64,000 bases of DNA. It comes from Bacteroidales bacterium. GTDB lineage: Bacteria; Bacteroidota; Bacteroidia; Bacteroidales; JAADJA01. Shown here piece after piece: positions 25,021 through 61,915 of this stretch. The notes beneath the pieces were generated by a model. The model saw only the letters and a list, made by a program, of their open reading frames with translations, was not told the DNA's origin and ran no database searches. Position 1 is the stretch's first letter. The number at the start of each line of letters is the position of its first letter. The stretch covers positions 54,284-118,283 of the forward strand of contig JADHVR010000001.1 in the NCBI GenBank assembly GCA_016783885.1, written 5' to 3'. The translations under genes and the position numbers were made by a program.

Positions 25021-26163
25021 ATGAAGGCGTTAAGAAAATATATTGACAAGATCAAACCTCAGTTTGAGAAAGGCGGAAAGTTTGAAAAGCTGCATTCTAC
25101 TTTTGAGGCATTTGAAAGTTTTTTGTTTGTGCCTGATAAGGTAACATTCAAAGGCAGTCATATCAGGGACGCACTTGACCTGAAACGTACTATGACGGTT
25201 GTGATCATTGCCGTAATCCCTGCTTTGCTTTTCGGCATGTGGAATGTAGGATTTCAGCATTTTATATCAATGGGTGAGACCGTTGGTTTCTGGGATCAGT
25301 TCTGGTACGGATTTTTAAAAGTATTACCTATTATCATTGTATCTTATGTCGTGGGGCTTGGAACTGAATTTGTTTTTGCACAAATCCGCGGGCACGAGGT
25401 TAACGAAGGTTACCTCGTAACTGGAATGTTGATACCATTGATAGTACCACCTGATATTCCTTTGTGGATGCTTGCCATTGCAGTGGTTTTTGCAGTGATC
25501 ATCGGGAAAGAAGTTTTCGGAGGAACAGGAATGAACATCCTGAACCCGGCATTAACGGCAAGGGCATTTTTATTCTTTGCCTATCCGCAGGATATGTCGG
25601 GCGATAAAGTCTGGATATCAGATAAAATAGATGCCTATTCCGGGGCAACGCCGCTCGGAGACGCACTTGTAGGTAACTTTGATAATTTCCCTTCGGCTGC
25701 AGATATGTTTTTCGGGTTTATTCCCGGTTCGGTTGGTGAAACCTCCTTCTTAGCCATACTGATTGGAGCGGTTATCCTTTTATTTACCGGTATTGCCAGT
25801 TGGAGAATTATGTTCCCGGTTTTTGCCGGAGGTTATATAATGGGGGTTATTTTCAATTTGGTTGGAGCCAATGCTTACATGGATATTCCCGCATACTACC
25901 ATCTGATAATGGGTGGCTTTGCCTTTGGTGCTGTATTTATGGCTACGGATCCTGTAACTGCTTCTCAAACAAATAAAGGTAAGTATATATACGGCTTCCT
26001 GATAGGAATATTGGCTGTATTGATACGCGTTGTTAACCCGGCGTATCCGGAAGGAATGATGCTGGCGATCCTCTTGATGAACGTTTTTGCTCCGCTTATC
26101 GATCATTATGTGATTGAAGCAAATATAAAAAGAAGATTAAAAAGGGTAAAAATCAAGGTATAA
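25021..26163 (+). CDS. nqrB: Na+-NQR subunit B
   Basis: 380 aa, polytopic. YSGATPL FMN-attachment-type motif. Confidence 0.95.
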   Translation: MKALRKYIDKIKPQFEKGGKFEKLHSTFEAFESFLFVPDKVTFKGSHIRDALDLKRTMTVVIIAVIPALLFGMWNVGFQHFISMGETVGFWDQFWYGFLKVLPIIIVSYVVGLGTEFVFAQIRGHEVNEGYLVTGMLIPLIVPPDIPLWMLAIAVVFAVIIGKEVFGGTGMNILNPALTARAFLFFAYPQDMSGDKVWISDKIDAYSGATPLGDALVGNFDNFPSAADMFFGFIPGSVGETSFLAILIGAVILLFTGIASWRIMFPVFAGGYIMGVIFNLVGANAYMDIPAYYHLIMGGFAFGAVFMATDPVTASQTNKGKYIYGFLIGILAVLIRVVNPAYPEGMMLAILLMNVFAPLIDHYVIEANIKRRLKRVKIKV

Positions 26164-49418: not shown

Positions 49419-49493
49419 GGGATATTAGCTCAGTTGGTTCAGAGCATCGCCTTGACAGGGCGGGGGTCAGTGGTTCGAATCCACTATATCCCA
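49419..49493 (+). tRNA. tRNA-Val(GAC): tRNA-Val (anticodon GAC)
   Basis: GGGATATTAGCTCAGTTGGTTCAGAGCATCGCCTTGACAGGGCGGGGGTCAGTGGTTCGAATCCACTATATCCCA. Confidence 0.9.
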
Positions 49494-49502
49494 CAAAAGA
49501 AA

Positions 49503-49554: not shown

Positions 49555-50349
49555 TCATACAGGCTTTTCAACTAATAGAGGTATTGTAAAATAGAATGAG
49601 GATCCTTTTCCTAAAGTAGATTTAACTATCAATTTTCCTCCTAATAACTGTATCAGTCTATCCGATATTGTTAAACCAATACCCAAGCCGCTATCTCGGC
49701 GTGTATCATCATCTTCTAATTGGGTGAATTTTTTAAATATCTTGTTTATATCCGTTCCATTTATTCCTATTCCGGTATCTTTAATAAAGAATTCTATATT
49801 ATTTTCATCATTAATCTCATATCCAAATTCAACTAAACCATTGATAGTAAATTTAATGGCATTTTCAATTAAATTAAATAAAGCATGTTTAAGTTTTAAA
49901 GGATCAGTAAATACTTTATTATCCTGATTATTTGATTTTTTAATTAAATTTATTTTTACATTTCTTTTTTTGTGGTTATTGATATTTATCTGAAAATAAT
50001 TATAAAGTTCATCCATGATATTTTGAATATCACAGAATGTCATGTTTAACTTAATATTACCTGTTTCAGCTTTTGCCGTTAGTATAATATTGTCAATTAA
50101 CCTAAGCAGTTCTTTGCTGTTTTTATTTATTTCATCAACGAAAAAATTCTTTTGATCTTGGCTATATCTTGAGTCTGATAACAAATTAGAAAAACCCATT
50201 ATTACATTCATGGGTGTCCTGATTTCATGCGAGATATTAGAAAGAAAAGAAGATTTGAGCCGGTTAACTTCTTCAATCTTAAAAGTTAATTCTTCTTTAA
50301 TTTCACTAACTTTATCCTCTAACTCACTGTATGAAAGCTTTTTGTGCAT
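49555..50349 (-). CDS. Orphan cytoplasmic histidine kinase (coiled coil, HisKA, HATPase_c; no sensor, TM or receiver)
   Basis: 264 aa. H-box LSNISHEIRTPMN, N-box NLIENAIKFT, G1 DTGIGI, G2 GLGIGLTIS. Confidence 0.85.
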   Translation of the reverse strand: MHKKLSYSELEDKVSEIKEELTFKIEEVNRLKSSFLSNISHEIRTPMNVIMGFSNLLSDSRYSQDQKNFFVDEINKNSKELLRLIDNIILTAKAETGNIKLNMTFCDIQNIMDELYNYFQININNHKKRNVKINLIKKSNNQDNKVFTDPLKLKHALFNLIENAIKFTINGLVEFGYEINDENNIEFFIKDTGIGINGTDINKIFKKFTQLEDDDTRRDSGLGIGLTISDRLIQLLGGKLIVKSTLGKGSSFYFTIPLLVEKPV

Positions 50350-50391
50350 TTTTTACTTTTATTCAGAAAGAAAATAAAACAACCTTTCTAT

Positions 50392-50427
50392 GGAGTTAAT
50401 TCTATTTTTTACAAAAAGGTTACCCTC
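50392..50427 (-). promoter_or_regulatory. Motif copy 1: GAGGGTAACC-N14-AGAATTAACTCC (upstream of the histidine kinase)
   Basis: Minus strand reads GAGGGTAACCTTTTTGTAAAAAATAGAATTAACTCC, ending 42 nt before the HK start codon. Confidence 0.6.
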
Positions 50428-50509
50428 AAAATCCAACTTTTTTTCAACAAAAAATTAAATGAGCTGATATACAAGGTGTTATAAGGGCGTTTTTTTTTTA
50501 AAAAAATCG

Positions 50510-50545
50510 GAGGGTAACCTTTTTGTCTTTTTTAGAATTAACTCC
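50510..50545 (+). promoter_or_regulatory. Motif copy 2 (upstream of the T9SS cargo gene)
   Basis: GAGGGTAACCTTTTTGTCTTTTTTAGAATTAACTCC, ending 102 nt before the ATG at 50648. Confidence 0.6.
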
Positions 50546-50647: not shown

Positions 50648-51886
50648 ATGAAGAAGAGAAGCTTTTTTGCCATTTTCATGGCAACGTTAGTATGTATTGC
50701 CCCTTCTGAATTGTTTTCTCAAAATGAGATTTCGGGTATCGTAACTTACCACAATGAAGAAGCTACTCCACTTACAGGTGTTGATGTAAATCTTCTGGAT
50801 TTAAATGGTAATTTGTTAGAAACAGTATCTTCCGATGAAAATGGGAAGTATATGTTTACCGGTATAGAAGAAGGAGAATATTTGCTTAAAGCAAGTTATG
50901 ATCAGCCAGCGTTTAATGCAATTAGTTTGGATGATATCATATTGTTGTTACAATATTTGAATGGATATACCACTCTTGAACCTATTCAAAAGCTTGCGGC
51001 TGATGTAGATGGAAATGGAATGGTAAACTATGATGACTTTTTTATGATTATTGAATATTGGTACTTGTATGGGGCACCTTTTCCTGTCGGAGATTGGGTA
51101 TTTGAGGAAAAGTTAGTTATGGCAGGTGGCAAAGGAGATGATGGAATAGGAGGAGGCGCAACAGGAGATGTACAGGGAGGATTCGATCCTGGTAAAGGTG
51201 GAAACAACTATTTGAATTTCTACAAAACAAATAATTATTTAGAGGTGCTTCCCAATCATATCAATAAATTACCAATTTCTGTTGATAATAATACTGATAT
51301 TGGAAGTTTTTGTATTGAATTATATTATGATAATCAAATTGTAGATGTAAAAAGTATAGAATCGGAACTTAATAATTATCGGTATATAATAACTGATAAT
51401 AAAATTAGAATAATATGGGCTGATACTGATCTTGAGGGAATCTCAATTAACAGTACAAGTAATCTTTTTTCAATTGATTTTGACTTGAAAGACAAAAATG
51501 CTGACTTAAATAAAGAAATATTTTTTCTTGGCTCAGAAAGTAAAATAACTGACGTTAAAGGCAATACTTATTATAATGTTGGAATAACTTATCCTTCGTT
51601 AAAATATAATCAGATATTTAGCTGGGAAGTTAATAATTATCCAAATCCGTTTAGAGAATATACATATATTGATTATTCTCTTCCTGAAACAGGTAATGTT
51701 CAATTATATATCACAGATATTAACGGGAAGTTGATTAAGTCGTTAGTAAATGAAATAAAGCCTGAAGGAAACTATAAAACAAAGCTTGATGGGAGTGCCT
51801 TAAATCCCGGAATTTATTTTTATCAGTTAATTTTTACAGGAAGTGAAAGAAATACAGTAAAGAATAAATTAATGAAAATTGAATAA
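50648..51886 (+). CDS. T9SS-sorted secreted protein (CarboxypepD_reg-like, dockerin-like, cohesin-like, Por_Secre_tail)
   Basis: 412 aa. Signal peptide, ISGIVTY...DENGKYMFTGIEEGEYLL, the Ca-binding dockerin-like ADVDGNGMVNYDDF, and C-terminal NNYPNPFREYTYIDYSLPETGNVQLYITDINGKLI...GIYFYQL. Confidence 0.8.
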   Translation: MKKRSFFAIFMATLVCIAPSELFSQNEISGIVTYHNEEATPLTGVDVNLLDLNGNLLETVSSDENGKYMFTGIEEGEYLLKASYDQPAFNAISLDDIILLLQYLNGYTTLEPIQKLAADVDGNGMVNYDDFFMIIEYWYLYGAPFPVGDWVFEEKLVMAGGKGDDGIGGGATGDVQGGFDPGKGGNNYLNFYKTNNYLEVLPNHINKLPISVDNNTDIGSFCIELYYDNQIVDVKSIESELNNYRYIITDNKIRIIWADTDLEGISINSTSNLFSIDFDLKDKNADLNKEIFFLGSESKITDVKGNTYYNVGITYPSLKYNQIFSWEVNNYPNPFREYTYIDYSLPETGNVQLYITDINGKLIKSLVNEIKPEGNYKTKLDGSALNPGIYFYQLIFTGSERNTVKNKLMKIE

Positions 51887-51911
51887 TTTATCCTACAAAA
51901 AATGAATAAAG

Positions 51912-51940
51912 GAGAGCTATTAAAAGCTCTCTTTTTTTTT
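51912..51940 (+). terminator. Strong rho-independent terminator after the T9SS cargo gene
   Basis: GAGAGCT-attaaa-AGCTCTC followed by T9. Confidence 0.75.
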
Positions 51941-52015: not shown

Positions 52016-55000
52016 ATGAGGTTTATTAAATCCGAACATATTAAATCGCTTTTTTTTATAAATTTTTGCGCTTTTATTACCTTTTTGATTTTAAGTAATA
52101 ATTACGCCCTGGGTAATAATTTCTCAATTGAAAAAGACTTATCAGATGCTGAAAAATATTACATGACTGCACAAAAATACTTTTCAAACACAGAAGAATA
52201 TGATAGTGCAGTTGTAAATTATACACACGCAGCATCTTTGTTTCTTAAGCTTGAAGACTGGAAAGGTTTAATTATGTGTAATCTGAAATTAACAGAGTGC
52301 TTTAATATTAAAGGAGAATTTCAATTAGCTTTAGATAATGCCAACCGGGCGATGCAGATTGCCGATTTACATCTTTCACAAGATGAATTACTCTTTTCGG
52401 ATATTTATTATTTATTGGGAAAAACTGAATACGAATTGGGAAATTATAATGAATCCATCTCACGTTTAAAAAAGGGATTACAATATATTGATCATAGTAA
52501 AACCGAATATGACAGTATAAAAGTGCTTGTTTTTAAAACATTAGGAAATAATTATCTCAGGCTGGGGAAATTAAATATAGCATTAAAATCGTATAATGAC
52601 GCATTATACATTGAATTTGATAGAAATGGCGATTCTACTTTATCTGTTGCTGTTTTATATGCCAACATCGGAATTGTTTATTCAGCCAAAGGCTATTATT
52701 TTGAGGCTGAAAAATATATAAGAAACTCTATAAGAATTACGGAACAGTTGCTGCCTGTAACAGATCCAGAATTGGCAAGGGGTTATGTGAATTTAGGAAG
52801 GCTTCTGGTAATAATAGGGAATACTAATGATGCCCTGAACTATTTTAATAAGGCAGAAGAAATTTATATTGAAAAGTTTGGACCGGATTATTATAAACTG
52901 GCTTTAGTTTATTTTAATAAAGGAGGTATATTTATTCTGAAAAATGATTTTCAAAAAGCTTTAACTTATCACGAAAAAGCCTTAGAAATTTATTCGAAAT
53001 ATTTAAAGCCTTCAAATGCTGTATTTGGAAAATTATATGGCAACTTCGGGTTGATATATAAAAATTTAGGTGATTATAATAAAGCCATTGAATTTTATAA
53101 AATAGCTATTGATAAAATTTCGAATACAGAATCTGAAATTATCGGATTAAGAAATTTAGCCACTTGTTATCAGGCTATAAATGACTATGATAAAGCCGGG
53201 TTTTATTATAGGCTTTCAATTGAGAAAGCCATTGAACTCTTTGGGAATAATCACACTCAACTTGCAGATTGTTATTTATATTTTGGTGAATTTTATAATG
53301 AGATAAATGATTTTGATAAAGCAGGAGAATTATTCAATAAAGCATATTTTATATATAAAAATAATTTTGGAGAGAAAAACAGGGATGTAGCAAACGTATT
53401 AACTTATATTGGCGATCTTTTTTTAACACTTCAGGATTATAATAATGCTTTGAATTATTATCAATCGTCATTATTATCCATTGTTAATAACTTTAACGAT
53501 AGCATTATTTATAATAATCCGGTTTTATCGCAACTCACCCAGGATGTAAATACAATTGATTGCCTTGATAAAAAGGCAAAAACATTTTATTTTTTATATT
53601 TAAAAAAAACTAATAATATAAATGATCTGATCGCCTGTCTTGAATCGGGCGAACTTGCCATTCAGTTATTTGAGATTATTAGAGTTTCATATACCGGTGA
53701 GAGTATTAAATTACTGGCAACTCAAAAAATAAACAATCTTTACAAGATATTAATATTAGCATCAGTTGAATTATATAAAAGAACCGGAGATACTCAGTAT
53801 TTGAAATCAGCATTTGAATACTCTGAGAAAAACAAAGCGGCTGTTCTCCTGTCATCAATAAAAGAATTAGAGGCAATGGATTTTAGTAATGTTCCTGTTG
53901 ATATTATGGATTTTGAACGATCCCTGAAAAATGATCTTGCAAATTACAGGAATTTAATTTTTGAGGAAGAACTAAAAAAAGAACCTGATGAAGATAAACT
54001 TATTAAATGGAAAAATGATTATTTTGAAATAACAAAAAAATATGATAGCCTGATATCGAATATAGAAAATAACTATCCTGAATATTATCAATTAAAGTAT
54101 GATAATAGTGTAATGGATATTGATAAAATCCAGGCGGGTTTAAGTGATGAGGATGTGTTTATCGAGTATGCACTTGTTGATTCTGTTTTAGTAATTTTTT
54201 GTATCTCATCCGACACATTAATTTATAACCTTGTGAACCTGAAGAATAATTTTAAAGAAAATGTGCTTAGTTATATCGAAATAACACATAATTTACCCGA
54301 AATAGAAAATAGTAAAGAAGGATTTATTAAATTTACAAATCTTGCCCATGAATTATTTCAATTTTTACTTGAACCAATTAGTGATTGCATATCAGAAAAA
54401 AAATTATTGATTATTCCTGATGATATTCTTGGTTACATCTCTTTTGAAAGTTTAATTAATAGAATGCCTGATACCGGTAAAGTCAATTATAAAAACCTTT
54501 CCTATATAATCAAGAACCATTCGGTTTCATATAGTTATTCAGCTACACTTTTATTTAAAGAATTAACAAAAAGAAAAAATACCGGGAAATTATTAGCTAT
54601 GGCTCCCCTTTATAATAATATAAATGATACATATAATATTGGTTATATAAACAGAATGGAGTACGAACAGCTTATAACCCCATTGGATTATAATGTTGAT
54701 GAGGTAACACAAATTCATGAAATAATGGGGGGTAAAAGCCTTACCGGCAAAGAAGCTTCTGAGAAATATTTCAAACTAAATGCTCAAAAATATAATATTC
54801 TTCATTTGGCAATGCATGCATTTATAAATGATGATGAGCCATTAGCCTCAAAATTAGTTTTTACATTTGATACTGATTCAATTGAAGATGGTTTTTTAAA
54901 CACGTATGAGATTTATAATCTGGACTTGAATGCACAATTGGCTGTATTAAGTGCTTGTAAAACCGGAGCGGGTAAATTAAGCAAGGGTGAGGGTATTATG

Positions 55001-55351
55001 AGTCTGGCTCGTGGATTTTTTTATGCTGGCGTACCCGGTATAGTTATGACTTTATGGGAGATTGAAGACGTTTCGAGCGCTGAAATTATGACAGAATTTT
55101 ATAAAAGCCTTAAAAGAGGTTTGACGAAAGATGAAGCCCTGAGAATTGCTAAATTGTCCTATCTCGAGTCAGCGAACCAGTTAAATGCTCATCCTTATTT
55201 CTGGGCTGCTTATGTACAAATTGGTGACAATTCACCAATTGCCACCAATTTTTTTATTAAGCATTATTATTTTTTTATTATTATATTCCTTGCTTGTATA
55301 GGAAGTGTTTACCTTGTAAAAGTTATTAGTGCCAGGAAAAAATCAAAATAA
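52016..55351 (+). CDS. Membrane-anchored TPR-repeat plus CHAT-domain (caspase-fold) protease
   Basis: 1111 aa. N-terminal hydrophobic signal/anchor. About 500 aa of TPR-like repeats (YYxLGxxYxxLGxYxxAIxxY pattern). C-terminal CHAT with His in ILHLAMHAF and Cys in AVLSACKTGAG. Terminal TM YFFIIIFLACIGSVYLV. Confidence 0.8.
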   Translation: MRFIKSEHIKSLFFINFCAFITFLILSNNYALGNNFSIEKDLSDAEKYYMTAQKYFSNTEEYDSAVVNYTHAASLFLKLEDWKGLIMCNLKLTECFNIKGEFQLALDNANRAMQIADLHLSQDELLFSDIYYLLGKTEYELGNYNESISRLKKGLQYIDHSKTEYDSIKVLVFKTLGNNYLRLGKLNIALKSYNDALYIEFDRNGDSTLSVAVLYANIGIVYSAKGYYFEAEKYIRNSIRITEQLLPVTDPELARGYVNLGRLLVIIGNTNDALNYFNKAEEIYIEKFGPDYYKLALVYFNKGGIFILKNDFQKALTYHEKALEIYSKYLKPSNAVFGKLYGNFGLIYKNLGDYNKAIEFYKIAIDKISNTESEIIGLRNLATCYQAINDYDKAGFYYRLSIEKAIELFGNNHTQLADCYLYFGEFYNEINDFDKAGELFNKAYFIYKNNFGEKNRDVANVLTYIGDLFLTLQDYNNALNYYQSSLLSIVNNFNDSIIYNNPVLSQLTQDVNTIDCLDKKAKTFYFLYLKKTNNINDLIACLESGELAIQLFEIIRVSYTGESIKLLATQKINNLYKILILASVELYKRTGDTQYLKSAFEYSEKNKAAVLLSSIKELEAMDFSNVPVDIMDFERSLKNDLANYRNLIFEEELKKEPDEDKLIKWKNDYFEITKKYDSLISNIENNYPEYYQLKYDNSVMDIDKIQAGLSDEDVFIEYALVDSVLVIFCISSDTLIYNLVNLKNNFKENVLSYIEITHNLPEIENSKEGFIKFTNLAHELFQFLLEPISDCISEKKLLIIPDDILGYISFESLINRMPDTGKVNYKNLSYIIKNHSVSYSYSATLLFKELTKRKNTGKLLAMAPLYNNINDTYNIGYINRMEYEQLITPLDYNVDEVTQIHEIMGGKSLTGKEASEKYFKLNAQKYNILHLAMHAFINDDEPLASKLVFTFDTDSIEDGFLNTYEIYNLDLNAQLAVLSACKTGAGKLSKGEGIMSLARGFFYAGVPGIVMTLWEIEDVSSAEIMTEFYKSLKRGLTKDEALRIAKLSYLESANQLNAHPYFWAAYVQIGDNSPIATNFFIKHYYFFIIIFLACIGSVYLVKVISARKKSK

Positions 55352-55360
55352 CTGATATTT

Positions 55361-56101
55361 TTATTGCAGGTATTCTAAAATATCTTCGGCTTGGCTTGCA
55401 TAGTAACTTTCACTTTTTGAAATCTTATTAAATTGTTCAATTGCTTTGTCTTTTTGTTTGTTCATCAGGTAAATTAAACCTAAGTACCAGTCAGCTTGCT
55501 CAACAAAGAGATTATTATTGTCATTGATGACGAATTCAAAAGACCCGATGGCATTATCATATTGTTCTAACTCAATATAACATATACCAGAATAAAATTT
55601 GGCAGTAATTTGACTCTTTAAAGCAGAAAAGTACAATAAAGCTGTTTCATAATCCTTTTGCTTATAATAATTAAAAGCATTTTGCAATGCTTCATCTGAA
55701 GACATTTTAACTGACCTGACTTGCTTTATTGGATGAGCAGGTTTATAATATTTGATAGCAAGTTTTTCGGTAGAGTATGTTCTGCTTGAGAGCATATACC
55801 ATAAGCCACCGGTAACTAAAATTAAAGCAAATGAAGCTGCTGCAAGATGCCAGGTTTTAATCAAATCTCTGTGAATATTCAGGAATGGATAATTGAGGGA
55901 ATAATGCTTTTTTTGTTTTTCCAGTTTTTTTCGCAGTTCCATTAATCCTTTATCCATAATTGCATGATTGATCTCGTAACGCAAATTGAATTCATTTGCA
56001 AGTTCTTGGTTGTTTTCTTTTTCCTTGATAAATTGCTGAACTTCTTTTTCTTTCAGGTTGCCATCAAGGTAATCTTCGATAATATTAAATTGTTCGGTCA
56101 T
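55361..56101 (-). CDS. Putative anti-sigma factor: N-terminal sigma-binding-type helix region, one TM, C-terminal TPR domain
   Basis: 246 aa. IEDYLDGNLKEKEVQQFIKEKENNQELANEF, TM WHLAAASFALILVTGGLWYML, and TPR-like YYKQKDYETALLYF...IELEQYDNAIGSF. Lies directly downstream of the sigma gene. Confidence 0.6.
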   Translation of the reverse strand: MTEQFNIIEDYLDGNLKEKEVQQFIKEKENNQELANEFNLRYEINHAIMDKGLMELRKKLEKQKKHYSLNYPFLNIHRDLIKTWHLAAASFALILVTGGLWYMLSSRTYSTEKLAIKYYKPAHPIKQVRSVKMSSDEALQNAFNYYKQKDYETALLYFSALKSQITAKFYSGICYIELEQYDNAIGSFEFVINDNNNLFVEQADWYLGLIYLMNKQKDKAIEQFNKISKSESYYASQAEDILEYLQ

Positions 56102-56120: not shown

Positions 56121-56696
56121 TTATTTCATTTTAATTATTTCCTTATATCTTGGATCTTTTTTAATACTTGCTACTAAATTTTCTTTACAGTAATGTTTGC
56201 GCTTTTTTATATAAGCTCCGCTTTTATACCTTAATATTCTTGCTATTTCTTTCACGGGAATACCAGCTAAAAATAATTCAAGAATTTTTTGACAGTTAAA
56301 ACTTAACTTTTTAAAATGATCCTGATAAATTTTATATCTATCATTTGCCTCAATAACTGTTGTTATATTTTCATCCAATTCTACAAACCTTCCGGATTCT
56401 TCTAAGTATAATTTTTTTAATTTTCGTTGTTCAAGTTGTTTGAGCCATAACAGCCTGCAAATCGAATAAAAATAAGTATCAAAAGAACAATTTAGTGTGG
56501 TTTCTTCCTTCTGTAATTTTTGATATATAACTAAAATAGCATCCTGATAAATATCCTTTGCATCCTCCCTCGTTCCAAAATTCTGATCTATAAAAGCTCT
56601 AATTTGATAAAAACAGTTTCCATAAATATAATTCAGAACATCTGCATTCATATTTTGAATGCCATTTAATACTTCTTCTGGTGAATATTCCCGCAC
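56121..56696 (-). CDS. ECF-type sigma-70 family factor
   Basis: 191 aa from the GTG at 56696. The ATG at 56651 (MNADVLNYIY) is the more likely start, because the GTG lies only 6 nt from the conserved upstream motif. Region 2 is EDAKDIYQDAILVIYQKL and region 4 is IPVKEIARILRYKSGAYIKKRKHYC. Confidence 0.8.
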   Translation of the reverse strand: MREYSPEEVLNGIQNMNADVLNYIYGNCFYQIRAFIDQNFGTREDAKDIYQDAILVIYQKLQKEETTLNCSFDTYFYSICRLLWLKQLEQRKLKKLYLEESGRFVELDENITTVIEANDRYKIYQDHFKKLSFNCQKILELFLAGIPVKEIARILRYKSGAYIKKRKHYCKENLVASIKKDPRYKEIIKMK

Positions 56697-56702
56697 TAAT
56701 CA

Positions 56703-56738
56703 GTAGTTAATTCTAAAATTCGACAAAAGGTTACCCTC
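56703..56738 (-). promoter_or_regulatory. Motif copy 3 (upstream of the ECF sigma gene)
   Basis: Minus strand reads GAGGGTAACCTTTTGTCGAATTTTAGAATTAACTAC, with the same 36-nt architecture as copies 1 and 2. Confidence 0.6.
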
Positions 56739-56880
56739 TTTTTTATACTTTTTTTCAACAAAAAAGTTAACTGATTGAATATCAGATAAAAAAAATCATA
56801 TTATTTTAGAGGATAAAAAGTTATTTACAGTACAATTTTAGAAAAAAAAAAGGTACGTTAAACAAAAAACGTACCTTTAA

Positions 56881-58047
56881 TTAATCCCATATTCCATTAA
56901 TGATTGTTTTACAAAATTTACACTTACCGTTTTCAATATTGTTTTCGAGTAGTCTATAACCTTTTCTTTTAATAATTATTTTATTACAATTAGGACAAAA
57001 AGTGTTTTCAGCATCAGATCCGGGTACATTTCCGATGTAAATATAATTAATACCTGCTTTAATAGCAACATACCTCGCCTTTTCTAATGTTGAGACAGGA
57101 GTTGCCGGTAAATTTGTTAGTTGATACTGAGGATGAAACCTGCTGAAATGAAGCGGTGAATCTTTAAAACCATTCTCAGCCAGCCATTCACACATTTCTT
57201 TTATCACATCCAAATCATCAGTCCAGCTTGGTACAATTAAATTGGTTATTTCGAGCCAGACTCCTTCTTCTTTCAGGATTTTTAAGGTGTTTAACACCGG
57301 CTCTAATGTTCCGGCATTGAGCATTTCATAAGTTTCATTGCTGAAAGATTTCAGGTCGATATTTGCTGCATCAATATATTTGCACCATTCTCTTAATGGT
57401 TTTTCATGAATATATCCCGCAGAGACAATAATATTTTTTACTCCTTTTTCTCTTGCAATTTTTGCAGTATCCAATGTGTACTCGTAAAAAGCAATCGGCT
57501 CTGAATATGTGTATGCAATCGATTTACAGTCGTATTCAAGGCATTGTTCCACCACTTTTTCAGGCATTAAATCATAGTTTCTTGTCTTTTGGGGGCTTGT
57601 TTGCGAAATTTCCCAATTCTGACAATTCAGACATGCCAGGTTGCATCCTGCTGTTGCAATTGAGAATGCATTGCTGGTTGGGTAAAAATGATAAAGCGGT
57701 TTTTTTTCAATCGGGTCAACATGCACTGCACATGGATTTCCATAAGCGGTGCTGTAGAGTTTTCCGTCAACATTTATCTTTGTCCGGCAATCGCCTTCCT
57801 CGTCCGGTTTAATATTGCATTTATTGGGGCATAACTGGCACTTTAATCCTTTGGGTGTATTTACATAATATTTTGCTTCAATGCTCCATTTGTCTAAGTC
57901 GCCTGAAAATGAGGGCAATCCTGTGGCATGTTCCATTGCTATTGCTTTTGACAGGAAATTTAAGTTGCAGAAACCATAAGATAAAGCCCCGATACTTAGA
58001 GCGCTTTTTTTTAAAAATTCTCTTTTTGATATTTTGTTGTGAGCCAT
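56881..58047 (-). CDS. AmmeMemoRadiSam-system radical SAM enzyme with a Tat-like N-terminal signal
   Basis: 388 aa. CNLACLNCQNW (CX3CX2C). The N-terminus MAHNKISKREFLKKSALSIGALS resembles a twin-arginine signal with KR in place of RR. C-terminal CPNC...CKFC. Confidence 0.8.
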   Translation of the reverse strand: MAHNKISKREFLKKSALSIGALSYGFCNLNFLSKAIAMEHATGLPSFSGDLDKWSIEAKYYVNTPKGLKCQLCPNKCNIKPDEEGDCRTKINVDGKLYSTAYGNPCAVHVDPIEKKPLYHFYPTSNAFSIATAGCNLACLNCQNWEISQTSPQKTRNYDLMPEKVVEQCLEYDCKSIAYTYSEPIAFYEYTLDTAKIAREKGVKNIIVSAGYIHEKPLREWCKYIDAANIDLKSFSNETYEMLNAGTLEPVLNTLKILKEEGVWLEITNLIVPSWTDDLDVIKEMCEWLAENGFKDSPLHFSRFHPQYQLTNLPATPVSTLEKARYVAIKAGINYIYIGNVPGSDAENTFCPNCNKIIIKRKGYRLLENNIENGKCKFCKTIINGIWD

Positions 58048-58195: not shown

Positions 58196-60331
58196 TTACT
58201 TTTTTGTTTTAAGCATTATTAATATACCTGTAATAATGTTAAGTAAACCTATAATCAAACTTACTTTTATTATTCCAAAGTATGGAACTAATAATGCTGA
58301 AACTAACAGCGCACCAACTGCCGAGCCTAACAGGTCGGAACCATAGGCTGTTGCAGCGATTACAGAAATGTTTATTGTCCTTAGTTTGGATGCCAGTGCA
58401 AACTGTATTCCCGTTAAAATGCCAATTGTAAATATCAAAATCATGAAGATTAAGTGAACACTGAAGTTATTCTTTAAAAAGGAATTTAATATCAGCAGGA
58501 TAACAGGAAGAACAAATGAGTATAAACCAATCAGATATTGCATTTGATAATATCTTTTTAAGTTAATCCTGACTTTTTTATAAAGATAAATTGAACCAAG
58601 CGCCAAGCCTATCATAAACACTGTGATAATTATCCCTATCATTAAATAAACATAGCCATAAATTACCTGAAAGGCAATAAGTAAAAGCACCTCGATAGAA
58701 GATGCCGAAAAGCCTGTTGTAAAAAGTCCGAGATTTACGATGTTGAGCCTGAGAATTATATAAAAAAGAGGTATAAGTAGAATTAATCCGATTATCAGCA
58801 AATTTTGTTTAAAATAGCTGAGCCAATATTTTAATTGTAAAAAATATGCAAGTGGCTTAAAATCTTCATTAATATCAACATCTGTCGTTAATGCATCTTC
58901 TATTAACTTACTGCGGTCAGATACCAGGGCATCGTCTAAATAATACAGGTTTACATATTCATTTTCTATGTTCTTCAATTCGATTAGCTGCGTAATTTTG
59001 TATGATAATTTGCCATCAGAAGCAATAAAATAATTTCTTCCTCCCGGAATTATTATCACATTTTTAAAAACCTTTTTTAATGTAGTAAAAAGTACCGAAT
59101 GAATTTGTGCGGCTTCTTCGCTCATGTAGTGTGATGTGGACATCAGACTAATAGAAATAACCGCATCTTTGTTTAAAACTCTTTTTAACTCTTTAAAGAA
59201 CTCAATTGTATAATACCTGTTTATCTGGGCATTTGCAGGATTAGGCAGATTTATCAAAACAACATCATATTTTATTTTTGATTTTCTGATGAACAGCCTC
59301 GCATCTTGGTTTATAATGTTTACTTTTTTATCTATAATGATATTGTCAGTCAGTTTTTTCCCGATTTCAATCAGCCGGGGATTAATTTCAACATAATCGA
59401 GCGATTTTATATTGTATTTTAAAATCTCATTTACTGTTCCTGAAATACCGCCCGAAATGAGTAATACATTTTCAGGATTTGGATGCTGAACCATTGCGTA
59501 ATGCACATTTTCTTCATTTGATACTGTATTTTCGGTTGAAAATAATGAAACTCCGTTTTCGAAAAAATTCAATTGGTCAGCAGTTTTTGTAACTGTAAGG
59601 TAACCATAAGGTGTATCCTTTTGATAAACAATTTCCTGGTTCTTATATAAATAACCGGCAGAAATACTATCAATATCATTGATAAACAATACTACGGAAA
59701 TAATTATGGTAATCAATGTCAGAACAGATGCCGTAATTATTTTTTTGTTAGAAAGTAATAATATGATTACTACAGCAAAATTGATTATTAGTATGATTTC
59801 AAGGCTAACAAAGGTTTTTAACAGGAAAAGAAATACAAAATTAAACAGCAATCCCCCCGCAATGCTTCCGAATGCTTCTATACCATAAACTTTATTGATT
59901 ACATTAGATTTATAAATCGAAAACAGATATGAACTGAATATGGTGAAAAGCAGCCCGGAAATAAGGCAAAAAGGCGCAATCAAAATCAGCGAGCCAAAAA
60001 AAATCTCAATCAGGCTGATCATTTTACCCGGCGGGAACACAATATTTCTTAGGTAATTTAAAAGGAATACAGTTATTAGGGGCAGGATTCCAATGAGTAG
60101 CTGAGCAGGGATTATTAATTTTATTTTGTTCTTAATTTTATCGGCAAACTTACCAAGGTATGCTCCTATTCCTGTCAGGAGCATCCAGTTGGCAAAGATG
60201 ATACCTATTACCAGTTCGTTACCATTGAAAACCGAAAGAAATTCTCTTAATAAAATAATTTGTGTTATCAGGCAGGTAAATCCGAGAATAAAAATTGAAA
60301 TTTTTATACTATGTTCGTTTTTGATAAACAT
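58196..60331 (-). CDS. Polytopic membrane protein with a central spermidine synthase-like (aminopropyl/methyltransferase fold) domain
   Basis: 711 aa. About 7 N-terminal and about 6 C-terminal TM helices flank VLLISGGISGTVNEILKY...YVEINPRLIEIGKK...DVVLINLPNPANAQINRYYTIEFF. Confidence 0.7.
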   Translation of the reverse strand: MFIKNEHSIKISIFILGFTCLITQIILLREFLSVFNGNELVIGIIFANWMLLTGIGAYLGKFADKIKNKIKLIIPAQLLIGILPLITVFLLNYLRNIVFPPGKMISLIEIFFGSLILIAPFCLISGLLFTIFSSYLFSIYKSNVINKVYGIEAFGSIAGGLLFNFVFLFLLKTFVSLEIILIINFAVVIILLLSNKKIITASVLTLITIIISVVLFINDIDSISAGYLYKNQEIVYQKDTPYGYLTVTKTADQLNFFENGVSLFSTENTVSNEENVHYAMVQHPNPENVLLISGGISGTVNEILKYNIKSLDYVEINPRLIEIGKKLTDNIIIDKKVNIINQDARLFIRKSKIKYDVVLINLPNPANAQINRYYTIEFFKELKRVLNKDAVISISLMSTSHYMSEEAAQIHSVLFTTLKKVFKNVIIIPGGRNYFIASDGKLSYKITQLIELKNIENEYVNLYYLDDALVSDRSKLIEDALTTDVDINEDFKPLAYFLQLKYWLSYFKQNLLIIGLILLIPLFYIILRLNIVNLGLFTTGFSASSIEVLLLIAFQVIYGYVYLMIGIIITVFMIGLALGSIYLYKKVRINLKRYYQMQYLIGLYSFVLPVILLILNSFLKNNFSVHLIFMILIFTIGILTGIQFALASKLRTINISVIAATAYGSDLLGSAVGALLVSALLVPYFGIIKVSLIIGLLNIITGILIMLKTKK

Positions 60332-60376: not shown

Positions 60377-61915
60377 ATGAGCATGAAAAAATGTATCCTT
60401 TCCGTGATTGTTTTCCTGGCTTTATTATGTACAGATTGTTCGGCACAGGAGAGCAAAGAAAAAAGCCAGTCAAACCAGCAGATCTATAACCGCCAGCCTG
60501 CCGTTGCCGGACAGTTTTATCCTGCTGATAAGAATGAATTGGAAAAAATGCTGGGCAATCTGTTTTCGCAAGCTGAAACAAAAAAGAAAGAAAATGTGCT
60601 TGCCGTTATTTCGCCTCATGCAGGCTATGTGTTTTCGGGTGAGGTTGCTGCTTCAGGTTTAAACCAGATTGACCCGGAAAAATCTTATGAAAATATTTTT
60701 GTGATTGCTTCGAGCCACAGAGCATATTACGAAGGAGCTTCGATTTATTACCTCGGAAATTATATTACTCCGCTTGGAGAGGTTAAAGTTAATATTGACC
60801 TTGCAAAACAACTTGCCGAAAAAAATAAGGTTTTTTCTTATGTGCCCAAAGCCCATATATCTGAACACAGCATCGAAGTTCAACTTCCGATGTTACAATA
60901 CAAAATGAAAAAGGATTTTCAGATTGTGCCAATCGTTATAGGAACGCAATCGCAGAAGGTTTGCAGGGAAATGGCTGAAATACTGAAACCTTATTTTAAA
61001 AAGAATAACCTTTTTGTGATAAGTTCTGATTTTTCGCATTATCCGCCTTATGAAGATGCCAATAAACTGGATATAGAAACTGCCGAAGCAATTATATTAA
61101 ATAATCCTGACGAGTTTATTAAAGTTATAAATGATAAGAAAAATGCCAGGGTTCCGGATTTATCAACACGTGCCTGCGGCTGGACCTCCGTGCTTACATT
61201 ATTATATATAACCGAAAACAATCTGGATGTTGAATATGCCTTTATTCAATACATGAATTCGGGTGATATGGATTTTGGTGATAAAAGCAGGGTAGTAGGT
61301 TATAATTCAATTGTAGTTAGTGAAAAGAAAGGTTCCGTTGAAAATACTGAATTCCGGCTTACTGATAAAGACAAAAAAGATTTGCTCGAAATTGCACGGA
61401 CAACTATTGTTGAATACATTTCAAACAATGAAGTTCCGAAACTAAATTCCGGCGATTACTCCGATAACCTTAAAGTGCATTGCGGCGCTTTTGTAACTTT
61501 GAATAAAAACCACAGCTTGCGCGGGTGTATCGGAAGGTTTATAGCCGATGAGCCTTTGTATAAAGTTATTCAGCAGATGGCTGTTGCATCTTCTACACAA
61601 GATACACGTTTCCTGCCGGTAAAGAAAGAGGAAATTAACGACATTGAAATTGAGATTTCTGTTCTGACCCCCATGATAAAAATCGAATCGATTAACGAAA
61701 TTGAGTTGGGTAAACATGGGATTTATATTAAAAAAGGATACAGGTCAGGGACTTTCCTTCCACAGGTTGCCACTGAAACGGGGTGGAATTTAGAAGAGTT
61801 CTTAGGGCATTGTGCAAGAGATAAAGCCGGAATTGGATGGGAAGGATGGAAGGATGCCGATGTCTATATTTATGAAGCTAATGTGTTTATAGAGGAAGAT
61901 TTTAAGGAAAAATGA
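60377..61915 (+). CDS. Fused AmmeMemoRadiSam protein B (MEMO1-like) and protein A (AMMECR1) with an N-terminal signal peptide
   Basis: 512 aa. Signal MSMKKCILSVIVFLALLCTDCSAQ. MEMO part VAGQFYPADKNELEKML...VISPHAGYVFSG. AMMECR1 part GAFVTLNKNHSLRGCIGRF...GTFLPQV. Confidence 0.85.
   Translation: MSMKKCILSVIVFLALLCTDCSAQESKEKSQSNQQIYNRQPAVAGQFYPADKNELEKMLGNLFSQAETKKKENVLAVISPHAGYVFSGEVAASGLNQIDPEKSYENIFVIASSHRAYYEGASIYYLGNYITPLGEVKVNIDLAKQLAEKNKVFSYVPKAHISEHSIEVQLPMLQYKMKKDFQIVPIVIGTQSQKVCREMAEILKPYFKKNNLFVISSDFSHYPPYEDANKLDIETAEAIILNNPDEFIKVINDKKNARVPDLSTRACGWTSVLTLLYITENNLDVEYAFIQYMNSGDMDFGDKSRVVGYNSIVVSEKKGSVENTEFRLTDKDKKDLLEIARTTIVEYISNNEVPKLNSGDYSDNLKVHCGAFVTLNKNHSLRGCIGRFIADEPLYKVIQQMAVASSTQDTRFLPVKKEEINDIEIEISVLTPMIKIESINEIELGKHGIYIKKGYRSGTFLPQVATETGWNLEEFLGHCARDKAGIGWEGWKDADVYIYEANVFIEEDFKEK

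What the first reader, a model, noticed from the sequence alone, without database searches (positions are those of the whole stretch)
50392..50545. 36-nt motif GAGGGTAACC-N14-AGAATTAACTNC present three times upstream of the HK, T9SS cargo and ECF sigma genes
Copies are at 50392-50427 (minus, 42 nt before the HK start), 50510-50545 (plus, 102 nt before the T9SS gene) and 56703-56738 (minus, upstream of the sigma gene). All share identical spacing. Copies 1 and 2 have identical outer blocks, and copy 3 differs in one base of the right block. Read as GTAAC-N16-GAATT, the motif fits a bipartite ECF-type promoter.

Copies 1 and 3 share a longer (~85 nt) similarity. It includes the palindrome CTTTTTTT-CAAC-AAAAAAG (50448-50466 and 56749-56767) and TTAA..CTGAT. 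Copy 2 instead has a T10/A8 palindrome just upstream.

Copies 1 and 2 form an inverted pair in the divergent HK/T9SS intergenic region. For the sigma gene, the motif ends only 6 nt from the tracked GTG start. This argues that the real start is the ATG at 56651, which would give a leader length similar to that of the HK.
Basis: seen in the sequence. Interest (0 to 1): 0.65.

Follow-up and report, generated by a model that had tools for sequence, protein, structure and literature searches.

The report
Alternative sigma factor promoter, three copies
The 36-nt motif is very probably the promoter read by the alternative (ECF-type) sigma factor encoded next to it, switching on that factor's own operon, a small histidine kinase and a secreted protein; this is an ordinary kind of bacterial switch, found here in an unstudied family of uncultured Bacteroidales.

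Summary
GAGGGTAACC-N14-AGAATTAACT occurs three times in the window, against 0.01 expected by chance. All three copies are intergenic and point at the sigma, histidine kinase (HK) and T9SS-cargo genes.

Comparison with about 110 related loci shows a two-box signal, A-G-GGT(T/A)ACCTTT-N12-GAAT(T/A)A, with invariant spacing and a free spacer sequence. It lies upstream of most sigma orthologues, down to 42% identity. It also precedes all neighbouring HK and cargo orthologues, short double-glycine-leader peptide genes, and remote genes elsewhere in related genomes. 110 of 111 strong sites are intergenic.

A conserved pyrimidine-purine step 8-9 nt after GAAT marks the likely transcription start. The geometry (GTwAC-N16-GAAT) is that of ECF sigma promoters. 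The best explanation is an autoregulated ECF-type promoter and regulon signal (confidence about 0.8).

The 15 N-terminal residues are conserved and show coding-type third-position variation. The GTG/ATG start sits 38-42 nt (usually 39) from GGT in 60 of 62 loci. This implies a leader of about 5 nt.

Novelty: a new member of a known kind. The surrounding sigma / TPR anti-sigma / TPR-CHAT module is uncharacterised and resembles a split Myxococcus DdvS-DdvA system.

The parts
56703..56738 (-). Motif copy 3, the promoter of the sigma / anti-sigma operon. The -35 box GGGTAACCTTT is at 56736-56726 and the -10 box GAATTA at 56713-56708. The predicted start of transcription is G 56701 (+/-2), 5 nt before the GTG at 56696.
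   Evidence: 35.8 bits. The orthologous position is conserved in 62 loci. The T/R step at index 33/34 is.
50392..50427 (-). Motif copy 1, the promoter of the histidine kinase gene. The -35 box is at 50425-50415 and GAATTA at 50402-50397. The predicted start of transcription is about 50389-50390, giving a leader of about 40 nt.
   Evidence: 37.4 bits. HK orthologues in L001, L004, L008, L013/14, L063, L071 and L100 carry the same site 70-76 nt before their ATG.
50510..50545 (+). Motif copy 2, the promoter of the T9SS-cargo gene. The -35 box is at 50512-50522 and GAATTA at 50535-50540. The predicted start of transcription is A 50547, giving a leader of about 100 nt.
   Evidence: 34.4 bits. All 5 cargo orthologues (L001, L033, L037, L063, L071) have a site upstream.
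56749..56765 (.). A/T-rich T7-CAAC-A6 element just upstream of the -35 box of copy 3, about -48 to -64 from the predicted start. It is a possible UP-like or DNA-bending element.
   Evidence: It is conserved in the 91% relative. Family-wide, positions -16 to -30 from GGT are almost free of G/C.
50438..50454 (.). The same A/T-rich element upstream of copy 1. It lies between copies 1 and 2.
56121..56696 (-). Divergent ECF-type sigma factor (191 aa, GTG start). It is the presumed reader of the motif.
   Evidence: Sigma70_r2 23.6 bits and TIGR02937 41.8 bits, both just under their cut-offs. The family profile matches SigW over sigma2+sigma4, E 3.9e-5. N-terminus is conserved.
55361..56101 (-). Putative single-pass anti-sigma factor with a periplasmic TPR domain (246 aa). 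It starts 19 nt after the sigma stop and is presumably co-transcribed.
   Evidence: TPR hits and a weak anti-sigma hit. A homologue follows sigma in 28 of 29 loci with enough sequence.
49555..50349 (-). Soluble histidine kinase (264 aa: coiled coil, HisKA, HATPase_c, no sensor or membrane domain). It is a target gene and is followed by a terminator-like hairpin at 49533-49502.
50648..51886 (+). Secreted protein with a T9SS C-terminal sorting domain (412 aa; CarboxypepD_reg, dockerin- and cohesin-like parts). It is a target gene.
51908..51935 (+). Intrinsic-terminator-like hairpin plus T-run after the cargo gene. It implies that the cargo transcript does not run into the CHAT gene.
52016..55351 (+). 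Membrane-anchored periplasmic TPR-CHAT (caspase-like) protein (1111 aa). It is a conserved member of the module but probably not driven by the motif in this window. A TAttTTTG box, like the Bacteroidetes housekeeping -7 element, lies about 20 nt before its ATG.
   Evidence: CHAT E 8e-54. It is convergent with anti-sigma in 24 of 29 loci.

Best explanation
The motif is the promoter recognised by RNA polymerase carrying the divergent ECF-type sigma factor encoded at 56121-56696.

**Proposed contacts and start sites**
- Sigma domain 4 would contact the -35 box (A)GGGT(A/T)ACCTTT.
- Sigma domain 2 would contact the -10 box GAAT(T/A)A, placed exactly 16 nt after GT(A/T)AC.
- Transcription would start at a conserved pyrimidine-purine step 8-9 nt after GAAT, at about 56701, 50389/90 and 50547.

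**Proposed circuit**
- The sigma factor is normally held by the co-transcribed membrane anti-sigma factor, which has a TPR domain.
- When released, it transcribes its own operon (positive feedback) through a leader of about 5 nt.
- It also transcribes a sensor-less histidine kinase, relaying to a phosphorelay, and a T9SS-secreted protein.
- In related genomes the same signal drives further T9SS cargo proteins, a stand-alone receiver and double-glycine-leader peptides.

**Shown here:** the motif, its conservation, geometry, placement and gene associations.

**Inferred:** that this sigma, and not another factor, reads it; the start sites; the anti-sigma control; and any role of the neighbouring TPR-CHAT protease.
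For: 1. The motif is non-random and confined to three intergenic, gene-facing positions in the window.
2. In 62 of about 80 sigma-orthologous loci (42-96% protein identity) the same two boxes lie upstream of sigma. Positions 6-9 (CTTT), G22, A24, T25 and A27 are invariant or nearly so. Spacer positions 11-20 are uninformative and the spacing never changes.
3. A matrix scan of 0.93 Mb of related loci gives 111 sites of 20 bits or more, of which 110 are intergenic. Shuffled sequence gives 1 site of 14 bits or more in five shuffles.
4. Downstream genes recur: sigma; HK (all module-linked orthologues); cargo (5 of 5); and double-glycine-leader peptides, two of which pass the TIGR01847 cut-off.
5. 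An exact-pattern scan of 185,579 species genomes found 27 stretches, all in Bacteroidota MAGs. Ten are in sigma/CHAT clusters and 17 elsewhere. My estimate of chance matches is about 2. The MAG with a 91%-identical sigma has 6 sites, including two more T9SS cargo genes.
6. Positions 33/34, which lie outside the scanning matrix, are pyrimidine in 54/61 and purine in 56/61 non-sigma sites whose start codons lie at varied distances. This is as expected of a -1/+1 step.
7. The geometry GTwAC-N16-GAAT equals that of known ECF promoters: SigW TGAAAC-N16-CGTA (own knowledge) and DdvS GTAA-n16-CGT (PMC6061681). ECF sigmas need near-consensus promoters and about half autoregulate (PMC7776599).
8. The sigma's region-4.2 helix (S159, Y162, KKRK164-167, C170, K171, E172) is invariant or nearly so across the family. 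This matches the invariance of the -35 box.
9. Sequence just after GAAT is more alike between sites of one locus than between loci (0.58 vs 0.49; 3 of 5000 resamples). This fits one clade-specific reader.
Against: - There is no transcript or binding data. All relatives are uncultured MAGs.
- The -10 box is GAAT, not the usual ECF CGT-type.
- The sigma scores just below the curated ECF/Sigma70_r2 cut-offs.
- GGT(A/T)ACC is itself a palindrome, which a dimeric DNA-binding protein could also read.
- A subset of sigma orthologues (L025-L028, L030-L032, L038, L040, L041, L049, L067, L081, L083) lacks the -35 box upstream of sigma, although the motif is present elsewhere in many of those loci.
- A GTG start only about 5 nt from the 5' end is unusual by E. 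coli standards.
Confidence: 0.8

Rival explanations
1. The motif is an operator or activator site for a conventional transcription factor, for example a response regulator partnered with the motif-driven histidine kinase. The factor would bind the GGT(A/T)ACC palindrome, and the promoter proper would lie elsewhere.
For: GGTAACC/GGTTACC is a perfect 7-bp palindrome whose central base is the only one that varies. Copies 1 and 2 form an inverted pair. A stand-alone receiver is one target in a related genome (L104).
Against: - The signal is strongly directional: TTT follows the palindrome and GAAT lies exactly 15 nt after it. It always faces the downstream gene.
- It ends 6-8 nt from the conserved sigma start codon, leaving no room for a separate promoter.
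- No DNA-binding response regulator is encoded in the module.
- There is a conserved Y/R step at the distance expected for +1.
Confidence: 0.07
2. It is a genuine alternative-sigma promoter, but it is read by a different sigma factor encoded elsewhere in the genome. The adjacent sigma gene would then be one of its targets and not its reader.
For: Bacteroidota carry many ECF sigmas, on average 22.5 per genome (PMC7826278). Some sigma orthologues lack the -35 box upstream of themselves.
Against: - The motif tracks this sigma family across 42-96% identity.
- It clusters within a few kb of it: 10 of the 27 genome stretches, and nearly all metagenome loci.
- The sigma DNA-contact helix is invariant, like the -35 box.
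- Autoregulation is the common ECF pattern (PMC7776599).
Confidence: 0.08
3. It is a dispersed repeat, the end of a mobile element, or a recombination site. Alternatively, the inverted pair 50392-50545 acts as a hairpin or cruciform with no promoter role.
For: Copies 1 and 2 form a long imperfect palindrome. It even draws sub-threshold plant-miRNA hairpin hits in Rfam. Copies 1 and 3 share extra flanking similarity.
Against: - Single, unpaired copies are conserved at orthologous positions in dozens of genomes.
- The spacers have diverged to background identity (about 0.40-0.46) while the boxes stay at 0.9 or higher.
- There are only 3 copies in 64 kb and about 6 in a related MAG. All are intergenic and gene-facing.
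- No transposase or target duplication is present.
Confidence: 0.02

Closest known systems
Autoregulated ECF (group 4) sigma promoters, e.g. Bacillus subtilis SigW (TGAAAC-N16-CGTA; own knowledge), as mined genome-wide by Todor et al. 2020 (PMC7776599)
   Same: - Two short boxes with a fixed 16-nt gap after the ..AC of the -35 box.
- Near-consensus copies.
- One copy upstream of the sigma's own operon and a small local regulon.
- The sigma family's best solved relative is SigW, over both domains.
   Different: - The -10 box is GAAT(T/A)A, not CGT-type.
- The -35 box is extended to 11-12 conserved bases (AGGGTwACCTTT).
- The sigma transcript would have a leader of only about 5 nt before a GTG/ATG start.
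- The sigma scores just under the curated ECF thresholds.
[quoted passage not shown]
   Same: - An ECF sigma linked to a single-pass anti-sigma and to a periplasmic TPR-CHAT caspase-like module.
- An autoregulated promoter with GTAA-type -35 box and the same spacing.
- Several sigma-dependent promoters clustered around the sigma gene.
   Different: - Here the TPR-CHAT is a separate, convergently transcribed 1111-aa membrane protein. The anti-sigma is small (246 aa), with only a short TPR domain.
- The anti-sigma N-terminus has no Cys, so it cannot be the CHCC zinc type.
- The targets are an HK, T9SS cargo and double-glycine peptides, not CBASS/CRISPR.
- No sequence-level match of the CHAT or anti-sigma proteins to any solved CHAT chain was found.
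- The DdvA authors found DdvA-like fusions only in Myxococcota and one Comamonas.
Porphyromonas gingivalis PorXY-SigP control of the type IX secretion system (PMC7712824)
   Same: It is in Bacteroidota. An ECF sigma is functionally tied to a two-component system and to type IX secretion.
   Different: - SigP controls T9SS machinery genes and is activated through the PorX response regulator.
- Here the sigma drives an HK gene and cargo genes.
- No homology or motif similarity to SigP promoters was tested or is claimed.
Bacteroidetes housekeeping (sigma-A) promoters, -33 TTTG / -7 TAnnTTTG (own knowledge)
   Same: It is found in the same intergenic regions. The CHAT gene in the window has a TAttTTTG box of this type.
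   Different: The motif has no conserved TAnnTTTG. The G after the T-run (index 11) is not conserved family-wide (10/55).

Membership tests
ECF-sigma-dependent promoter | Bipartite -35 / -10 signal with a fixed spacing of about 16-17 nt and a non-conserved spacer sequence | tested here: met
   GTwAC-N16-GAAT in every one of 55 unique sigma-upstream sites. Spacer information is about 0 bits.
ECF-sigma-dependent promoter | -35 box containing the ..AAC core and -10 box of the CGT type | tested here: inconclusive
   The -35 is GTAAC in the window but GTTAC in 42/55 family sites. The -10 is [ACG]GAAT: the G is invariant but A replaces the usual T. It is a variant, not a violation of the geometry.
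ECF-sigma-dependent promoter | A copy upstream of the sigma factor's own operon (autoregulation) | tested here: met
   Present in 62 loci at 38-45 nt (mostly 39) from the start codon. Absent from a minority clade.
ECF-sigma-dependent promoter | Intergenic, co-oriented with the downstream gene, at promoter distance | tested here: met
   110/111 sites are intergenic. Downstream starts lie 30-135 nt from GGT in most cases.
ECF-sigma-dependent promoter | Transcription start 6-9 nt after the -10 box, and dependence on the sigma factor | not testable with these tools
   Only indirect evidence: a conserved Y/R step at index 33/34 in sigma and non-sigma sites.
ECF (group 4) sigma factor (the protein at 56121-56696) | Sigma2 and sigma4 domains only, about 190 aa, matching curated ECF models | tested here: inconclusive
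   Sigma70_r2 scores 23.6 bits vs cut-off 24. TIGR02937 scores 41.8 vs 42.9. The family profile matches SigW residues 6-182, E 3.9e-5. This gives superfamily membership that is clear in shape but sub-threshold in score.
DdvS-DdvA type (anti-sigma fused to TPR-CHAT) | One polypeptide with a cytoplasmic zinc-binding anti-sigma domain, a TM helix and a periplasmic TPR-CHAT | tested here: not met
   The anti-sigma (246 aa, no Cys in its N-terminal 80 residues) and the TPR-CHAT (1111 aa) are separate genes. The pairing is conserved in 24/29 loci.
DdvS-DdvA type (anti-sigma fused to TPR-CHAT) | CHAT His-Cys catalytic dyad present | tested here: met
   HLAMHA and LSACKTG motifs are present in the window protein and in L004 and L026 homologues. 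Reading these as the dyad rests on my own knowledge of CHAT/caspase motifs. The Pfam CHAT match is full-length.
Bacteroidetes sigma-A promoter | -7 TAnnTTTG with -33 TTTG | tested here: not met
   No such conserved box appears in the logo.
Dispersed repeat / MITE | Many copies, random orientation, uniform conservation across the unit, also inside genes | tested here: not met
   There are 3 copies in 64 kb. Only the boxes are conserved. 110/111 sites are intergenic.
Known RNA family in these intergenic regions | Rfam covariance-model match | tested here: not met
   Only sub-threshold miRNA-hairpin hits, caused by the inverted pair.

The most novel reading that the evidence does not exclude
The motif may be the output signal of an undescribed Bacteroidota signalling module: an ECF sigma, a small TPR anti-sigma and a separate periplasmic TPR-CHAT caspase-like protease. 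In this reading the module is a 'split' counterpart of Myxococcus DdvS-DdvA, and the CHAT protein acts as the site-1 protease that frees the sigma.

The regulon would consist of exported products (double-glycine-leader peptides in many clades, T9SS cargo in this one) plus a sensor-less kinase. That would make it a self-amplifying peptide or secreted-protein signalling or antagonism circuit. The near-leaderless, GTG-initiated sigma message would be a fixed part of the design.
Probability: 0.25. Interest if true: 0.7.

Novelty: new member of a known kind. Interest (0 to 1): 0.45.

Why it matters
The result gives a precise, testable promoter and regulon for a large, unstudied family of Bacteroidota sigma factors. 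The family has 628 clusters at 50% identity with E <= 1e-30. All relatives with the exact window-type pattern are uncultured MAGs.

- It fixes the true start of the sigma gene, where database gene calls disagree (191 vs 176 aa).
- It predicts transcription starts to within +/-2 nt.
- It links the sigma to a conserved TPR anti-sigma / TPR-CHAT pair.

The only characterised analogue of that pair, DdvA, was reported as confined to Myxococcota and one Comamonas. If the CHAT protein controls the anti-sigma, this would extend caspase-like control of sigma factors to a major phylum. It would also tie that control to secreted peptides and type IX cargo.

Tried and rejected
- **Sigma-70 scan.** A sigma-70 consensus scan of the region found 17 promoter-like sites against 17.3 expected, so it is uninformative.
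- **Housekeeping promoter.** The Bacteroidetes pattern TTTG/TAnnTTTG is not conserved in the motif.
- **Rfam.** A search of the HK/cargo intergenic region and of a related divergent site gave only sub-threshold chance or hairpin hits.
- **CHAT gene as a target.** I rejected co-transcription with the cargo gene for this window. A terminator-like hairpin follows the cargo gene, and in L026 the motif points away from CHAT.
- **Upstream palindrome as a general operator.** It is confined to the closest clade. Other clades carry different A/T-rich palindromes (e.g. AGAATAATTCT) at the same place, and the only general property is A/T richness.
- **Solved structures.** PDB sequence searches with the CHAT and anti-sigma proteins returned only generic TPR proteins, so homology to DdvA is unproven.
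- **Literature.** Full-text searches found no paper on a Bacteroidota sigma/TPR/CHAT module or on this motif. The supplements of the ECF re-classification paper are not held, so assignment to an ECF group could not be checked. The dCas12f-sigmaE papers proved irrelevant.
- **Not attempted.**
  - Structure prediction of the CHAT protein. It would not bear on the motif and needs another large homology search.
  - Residue-nucleotide covariation analysis.

Full report
**1. The observation**

The 36-nt motif is present exactly as described, at 50392-50427 (-), 50510-50545 (+) and 56703-56738 (-).
- GAGGGTAACC-N14-AGAATTAACT gives three perfect matches and no further match at up to three mismatches. 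The chance expectation is 0.01, and 0 of 100 shuffles reached three.
- A looser pattern adds only one chance-level hit inside a gene at 26032.
- The distances to the start codons (42, 102 and 6 nt) are correct.
- The extra similarity between copies 1 and 3 is real: TTAAnTTTTTTGTTGAAAAAAAGT lies directly 5' of the motif.
- The shared T7-CAAC-A6 element lies at 50438-50454 and 56749-56765.

**2. The genes**

| Coordinates | Strand | Product | Evidence |
|---|---|---|---|
| 56121-56696 | - | 191-aa divergent ECF-type sigma | Sigma70_r2 23.6 bits vs cut-off 24; TIGR02937 41.8 vs 42.9; family profile aligns to B. subtilis SigW over both domains, E 3.9e-5 |
| 55361-56101 | - | 246-aa protein: short N-terminal domain, one hydrophobic helix, C-terminal TPR domain (typical single-pass anti-sigma layout) | Starts 19 nt after the sigma stop |
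| 52016-55351 | + | 1111-aa TPR-CHAT protein with hydrophobic N- and C-terminal segments | CHAT E 8e-54 |
| 50648-51886 | + | 412-aa protein with a signal peptide and a T9SS sorting domain | |
| 49555-50349 | - | 264-aa kinase with HisKA and HATPase_c only | |

A terminator-like hairpin follows the cargo gene (51908-51935) and another follows the kinase gene. Each therefore looks monocistronic. The CHAT gene appears to have its own housekeeping-type TAttTTTG box.

**3. Comparative evidence for the motif**

I collected homologues of the sigma and fetched their loci, about 85 loci at 42-96% protein identity.
- In 62 loci a GGT(T/A)AC box lies upstream of sigma. The first G is 38-42 nt (usually 39) from the start codon in 60 of them.
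- A logo from 55 unique sites reads A-G-G-G-T-(T/A)-A-C-C-T-T-T-(T), then 11 uninformative positions, then [A/C/G]-G-A-A-T-(T/A)-A.
- C6, T7-T9, G22, A24, T25 and A27 are invariant or nearly so, and they were not used to anchor the alignment.
- The spacing never varies.

This is the signature of a two-box promoter, not of a repeat. Between loci the boxes stay at least 93% identical, while the spacer is at background identity of 0.40.

**4. A regulon signal**

*Matrix scan of the related loci*
- A weight matrix covering the two boxes found 118 sites of 14 bits or more in 0.93 Mb of related loci. Five shuffles of the same DNA gave one such site, with a maximum of 15.1 bits.
- Of 111 sites of 20 bits or more, 110 are intergenic, and all face a downstream gene or short ORF.
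- The window itself has only the three sites.

*Recurrent targets*
- The sigma gene.
- The kinase: every module-linked orthologue, directly or behind a small peptide gene.
- The cargo protein (5 of 5 orthologues).
- In many clades, 30-60-aa peptides with a double-glycine leader (..LTKEELNEVKGG..). Two of five tested pass the TIGR01847 bacteriocin-leader cut-off.

*Exact-pattern scan of species genomes*
- An exact scan for GGGTWACCTTT-N11-AGAATTAAC over one genome per species returned 27 stretches. All are in Bacteroidota MAGs: Bacteroidales, Prolixibacteraceae and one Flavihumibacter. I estimate about 2 chance matches for 596 Gb.
- Ten stretches lie in sigma/CHAT clusters and 17 elsewhere.
- The MAG whose sigma is 91% identical (GCA_021107975.1) has six sites. 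These are the three seen in the window, two in front of further T9SS-cargo genes, and one at a contig end.
- Another genome has a site in front of a stand-alone receiver domain (L104).

**5. Where transcription should start**

Positions 33 and 34, counted from the first G of GGT, lie outside the scanning matrix. They are T (pyrimidine in 54/61) and purine (56/61) in the non-sigma sites, whose start codons lie at varied distances. The sigma sites show the same pattern.

A Y/R step 8-9 nt after the -10 box is what a transcription start looks like. In the window this predicts:
- +1 at G 56701, giving the leader GAUUA before GUG;
- about 50389/50390, giving a leader of about 40 nt for the kinase;
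- A 50547, giving a leader of about 100 nt for the cargo gene.

On this numbering, GAAT occupies -12 to -9 and GGTwAC occupies -34 to -29. This is the usual ECF arrangement. These starts are inferred, not shown.

**6. The start codon**

The evidence goes the other way.
- Residues 1-15 (M-[RQ]-E-[YF]-x-x-E-E-[IV]-L-x-G-[IL]) are conserved down to 42% identity. I9 and G12 are conserved in at least 90% of sequences.
- All 15 unique sequences of the nearer clade begin with GTG.
- In codons 2-16 the third position is markedly more variable than positions 1 and 2 (entropy 0.82 vs 0.47 and 0.49).
- The promoter-to-start distance is fixed.
- Database gene calls disagree: P0002 has 191 aa, while P0003 and P0004 have 176 aa. 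The long form is the supported one.

The very short leader is thus a conserved trait. That it is translated efficiently is an inference from the general Shine-Dalgarno independence of Bacteroidota (own knowledge).

**7. Mechanism and rivals**

The best explanation is a promoter read by the adjacent sigma, with positive autoregulation and a small regulon.
- Established background supports this. ECF sigmas need near-consensus bipartite promoters, and about half autoregulate (PMC7776599).
- Known examples have the same geometry: DdvS GTAA-n16-CGT (PMC6061681) and SigW TGAAAC-N16-CGTA (own knowledge).
- The sigma's predicted -35-contacting helix is invariant, like the box it would read.
- The sequence after GAAT co-varies within loci.

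The rivals are less likely.
- A dimeric regulator binding the GGTNACC palindrome fits poorly. The signal is directional, leaves no room for another promoter before the sigma start, and the module encodes no DNA-binding regulator.
- A different sigma reading the motif cannot be excluded without experiments.
- A repeat or cruciform is excluded by the pattern of conservation. The sub-threshold miRNA hits in Rfam merely reflect the inverted pair.

The A/T-rich tract upstream of the -35 box is nearly free of G/C at -16 to -30 from GGT. It sits where an UP element would be. The T7-CAAC-A6 form is specific to the closest clade.

**8. Context and comparison with known systems**

Sigma, anti-sigma and a convergent TPR-CHAT gene form a conserved triad: 28/29 and 24/29 loci with enough sequence.

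The only characterised ECF system with a TPR-CHAT is M. xanthus DdvS-DdvA. There the CHAT module is fused to the anti-sigma and is proposed to self-cleave as the first step of sigma release. Its authors found such fusions only in Myxococcota and one Comamonas (PMC11506125).

The present module is not a member of that family.
- The two proteins are separate.
- The anti-sigma lacks cysteines for a zinc site.
- The targets differ.
- No sequence-level match was found.

It may nevertheless work alike. No paper describing the Bacteroidota module or this motif was found in the searchable library. Its ECF group could not be checked.

**9. Verdict**

- The promoter interpretation is well supported at the level comparative genomics allows.
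- The start-codon reassignment is rejected.

This is a new member of a known kind, an autoregulated ECF promoter and regulon, with a variant -10 box and a conserved near-leaderless sigma message. The sigma family is sizeable: 628 clusters at 50% identity with E <= 1e-30. The more novel question is whether the separate TPR-CHAT protease gates this sigma, and whether the secreted peptides or cargo close a signalling loop. That question is raised here but not answered.

Noticed in passing
L025, L026 (15828+), L032, L036, L039, L040, L046, L051/L056, L055, L069, L079, L101, L111: In many related loci the motif drives 30-60-aa peptides with a double-glycine leader (..EELNEVKGG....NEMLQVRGG..) followed by an acidic or proline-rich tail. 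These genes lie beside the TPR-CHAT gene, where the window has the T9SS-cargo gene. Two of five tested pass the TIGR01847 bacteriocin-leader cut-off.
   Followed up: partly
L109 4299-4711 and L110 6240-6731 (same MAG, CAYWXI01): A strong motif site is followed about 150 nt later by a tandem array of 41-nt units (5.6 and 8.7 copies) and then a 322-aa ORF. This may be a structured or repeated RNA under the same promoter.
   Followed up: no
L042 1813-, L044 9595-, L051 9746-, L053 5951-, L060 3575-, L076 1707-: A second motif copy lies divergent from the sigma promoter. At the predicted +1 it is followed by a conserved GAAGGTGCTTTT(T)CCTTCAACCAT hairpin and a poorly conserved 47-63-aa ORF. There is no Rfam match.
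   Followed up: partly
L026 10755-10850; also L023, L027, L028, L032, L038: In a clade whose sigma lacks the -35 box, a full motif copy lies after the sigma gene. At the usual +38 it is followed by a 17-23-codon ORF (MKMIKYTNEEF..) that resembles a sigma N-terminus. This looks like a displaced or duplicated promoter plus 5' end, now upstream of a longer (511-aa) anti-sigma.
   Followed up: partly
L108 5700-6086; window 49419-49494: In one relative the motif is kept but the kinase gene is gone. The order there is motif, about 200 nt, terminator, tRNA, then the DPP-IV gene. The window has the same tRNA-Val and DPP-IV neighbours with the kinase intact.
   Followed up: no
L004 15020-15202 (-): A 60-aa ORF has an N-terminus like the window's cargo signal peptide and no motif upstream. 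It appears to be a decayed remnant of the cargo gene.
   Followed up: no
window 56881-58047, 58196-60331 and 60377-61915: The neighbours upstream of the sigma are a radical SAM protein with a twin-arginine-like N-terminus, a large ORF at 58196-60331 matching the position of the spermine-synthase-domain protein in the relatives, and a third large ORF at 60377-61915. Only the radical SAM protein (56881-58047) was scanned in the window itself. In the nearer relatives the syntenic genes carry Memo/AMMECR1, spermine-synthase and radical SAM domains. They have no motif.
   Followed up: no
window 50410-50527: Rfam gives sub-threshold plant miRNA-precursor hits on both strands. They are an artefact of the inverted pair of motif copies 1 and 2.
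   Followed up: yes
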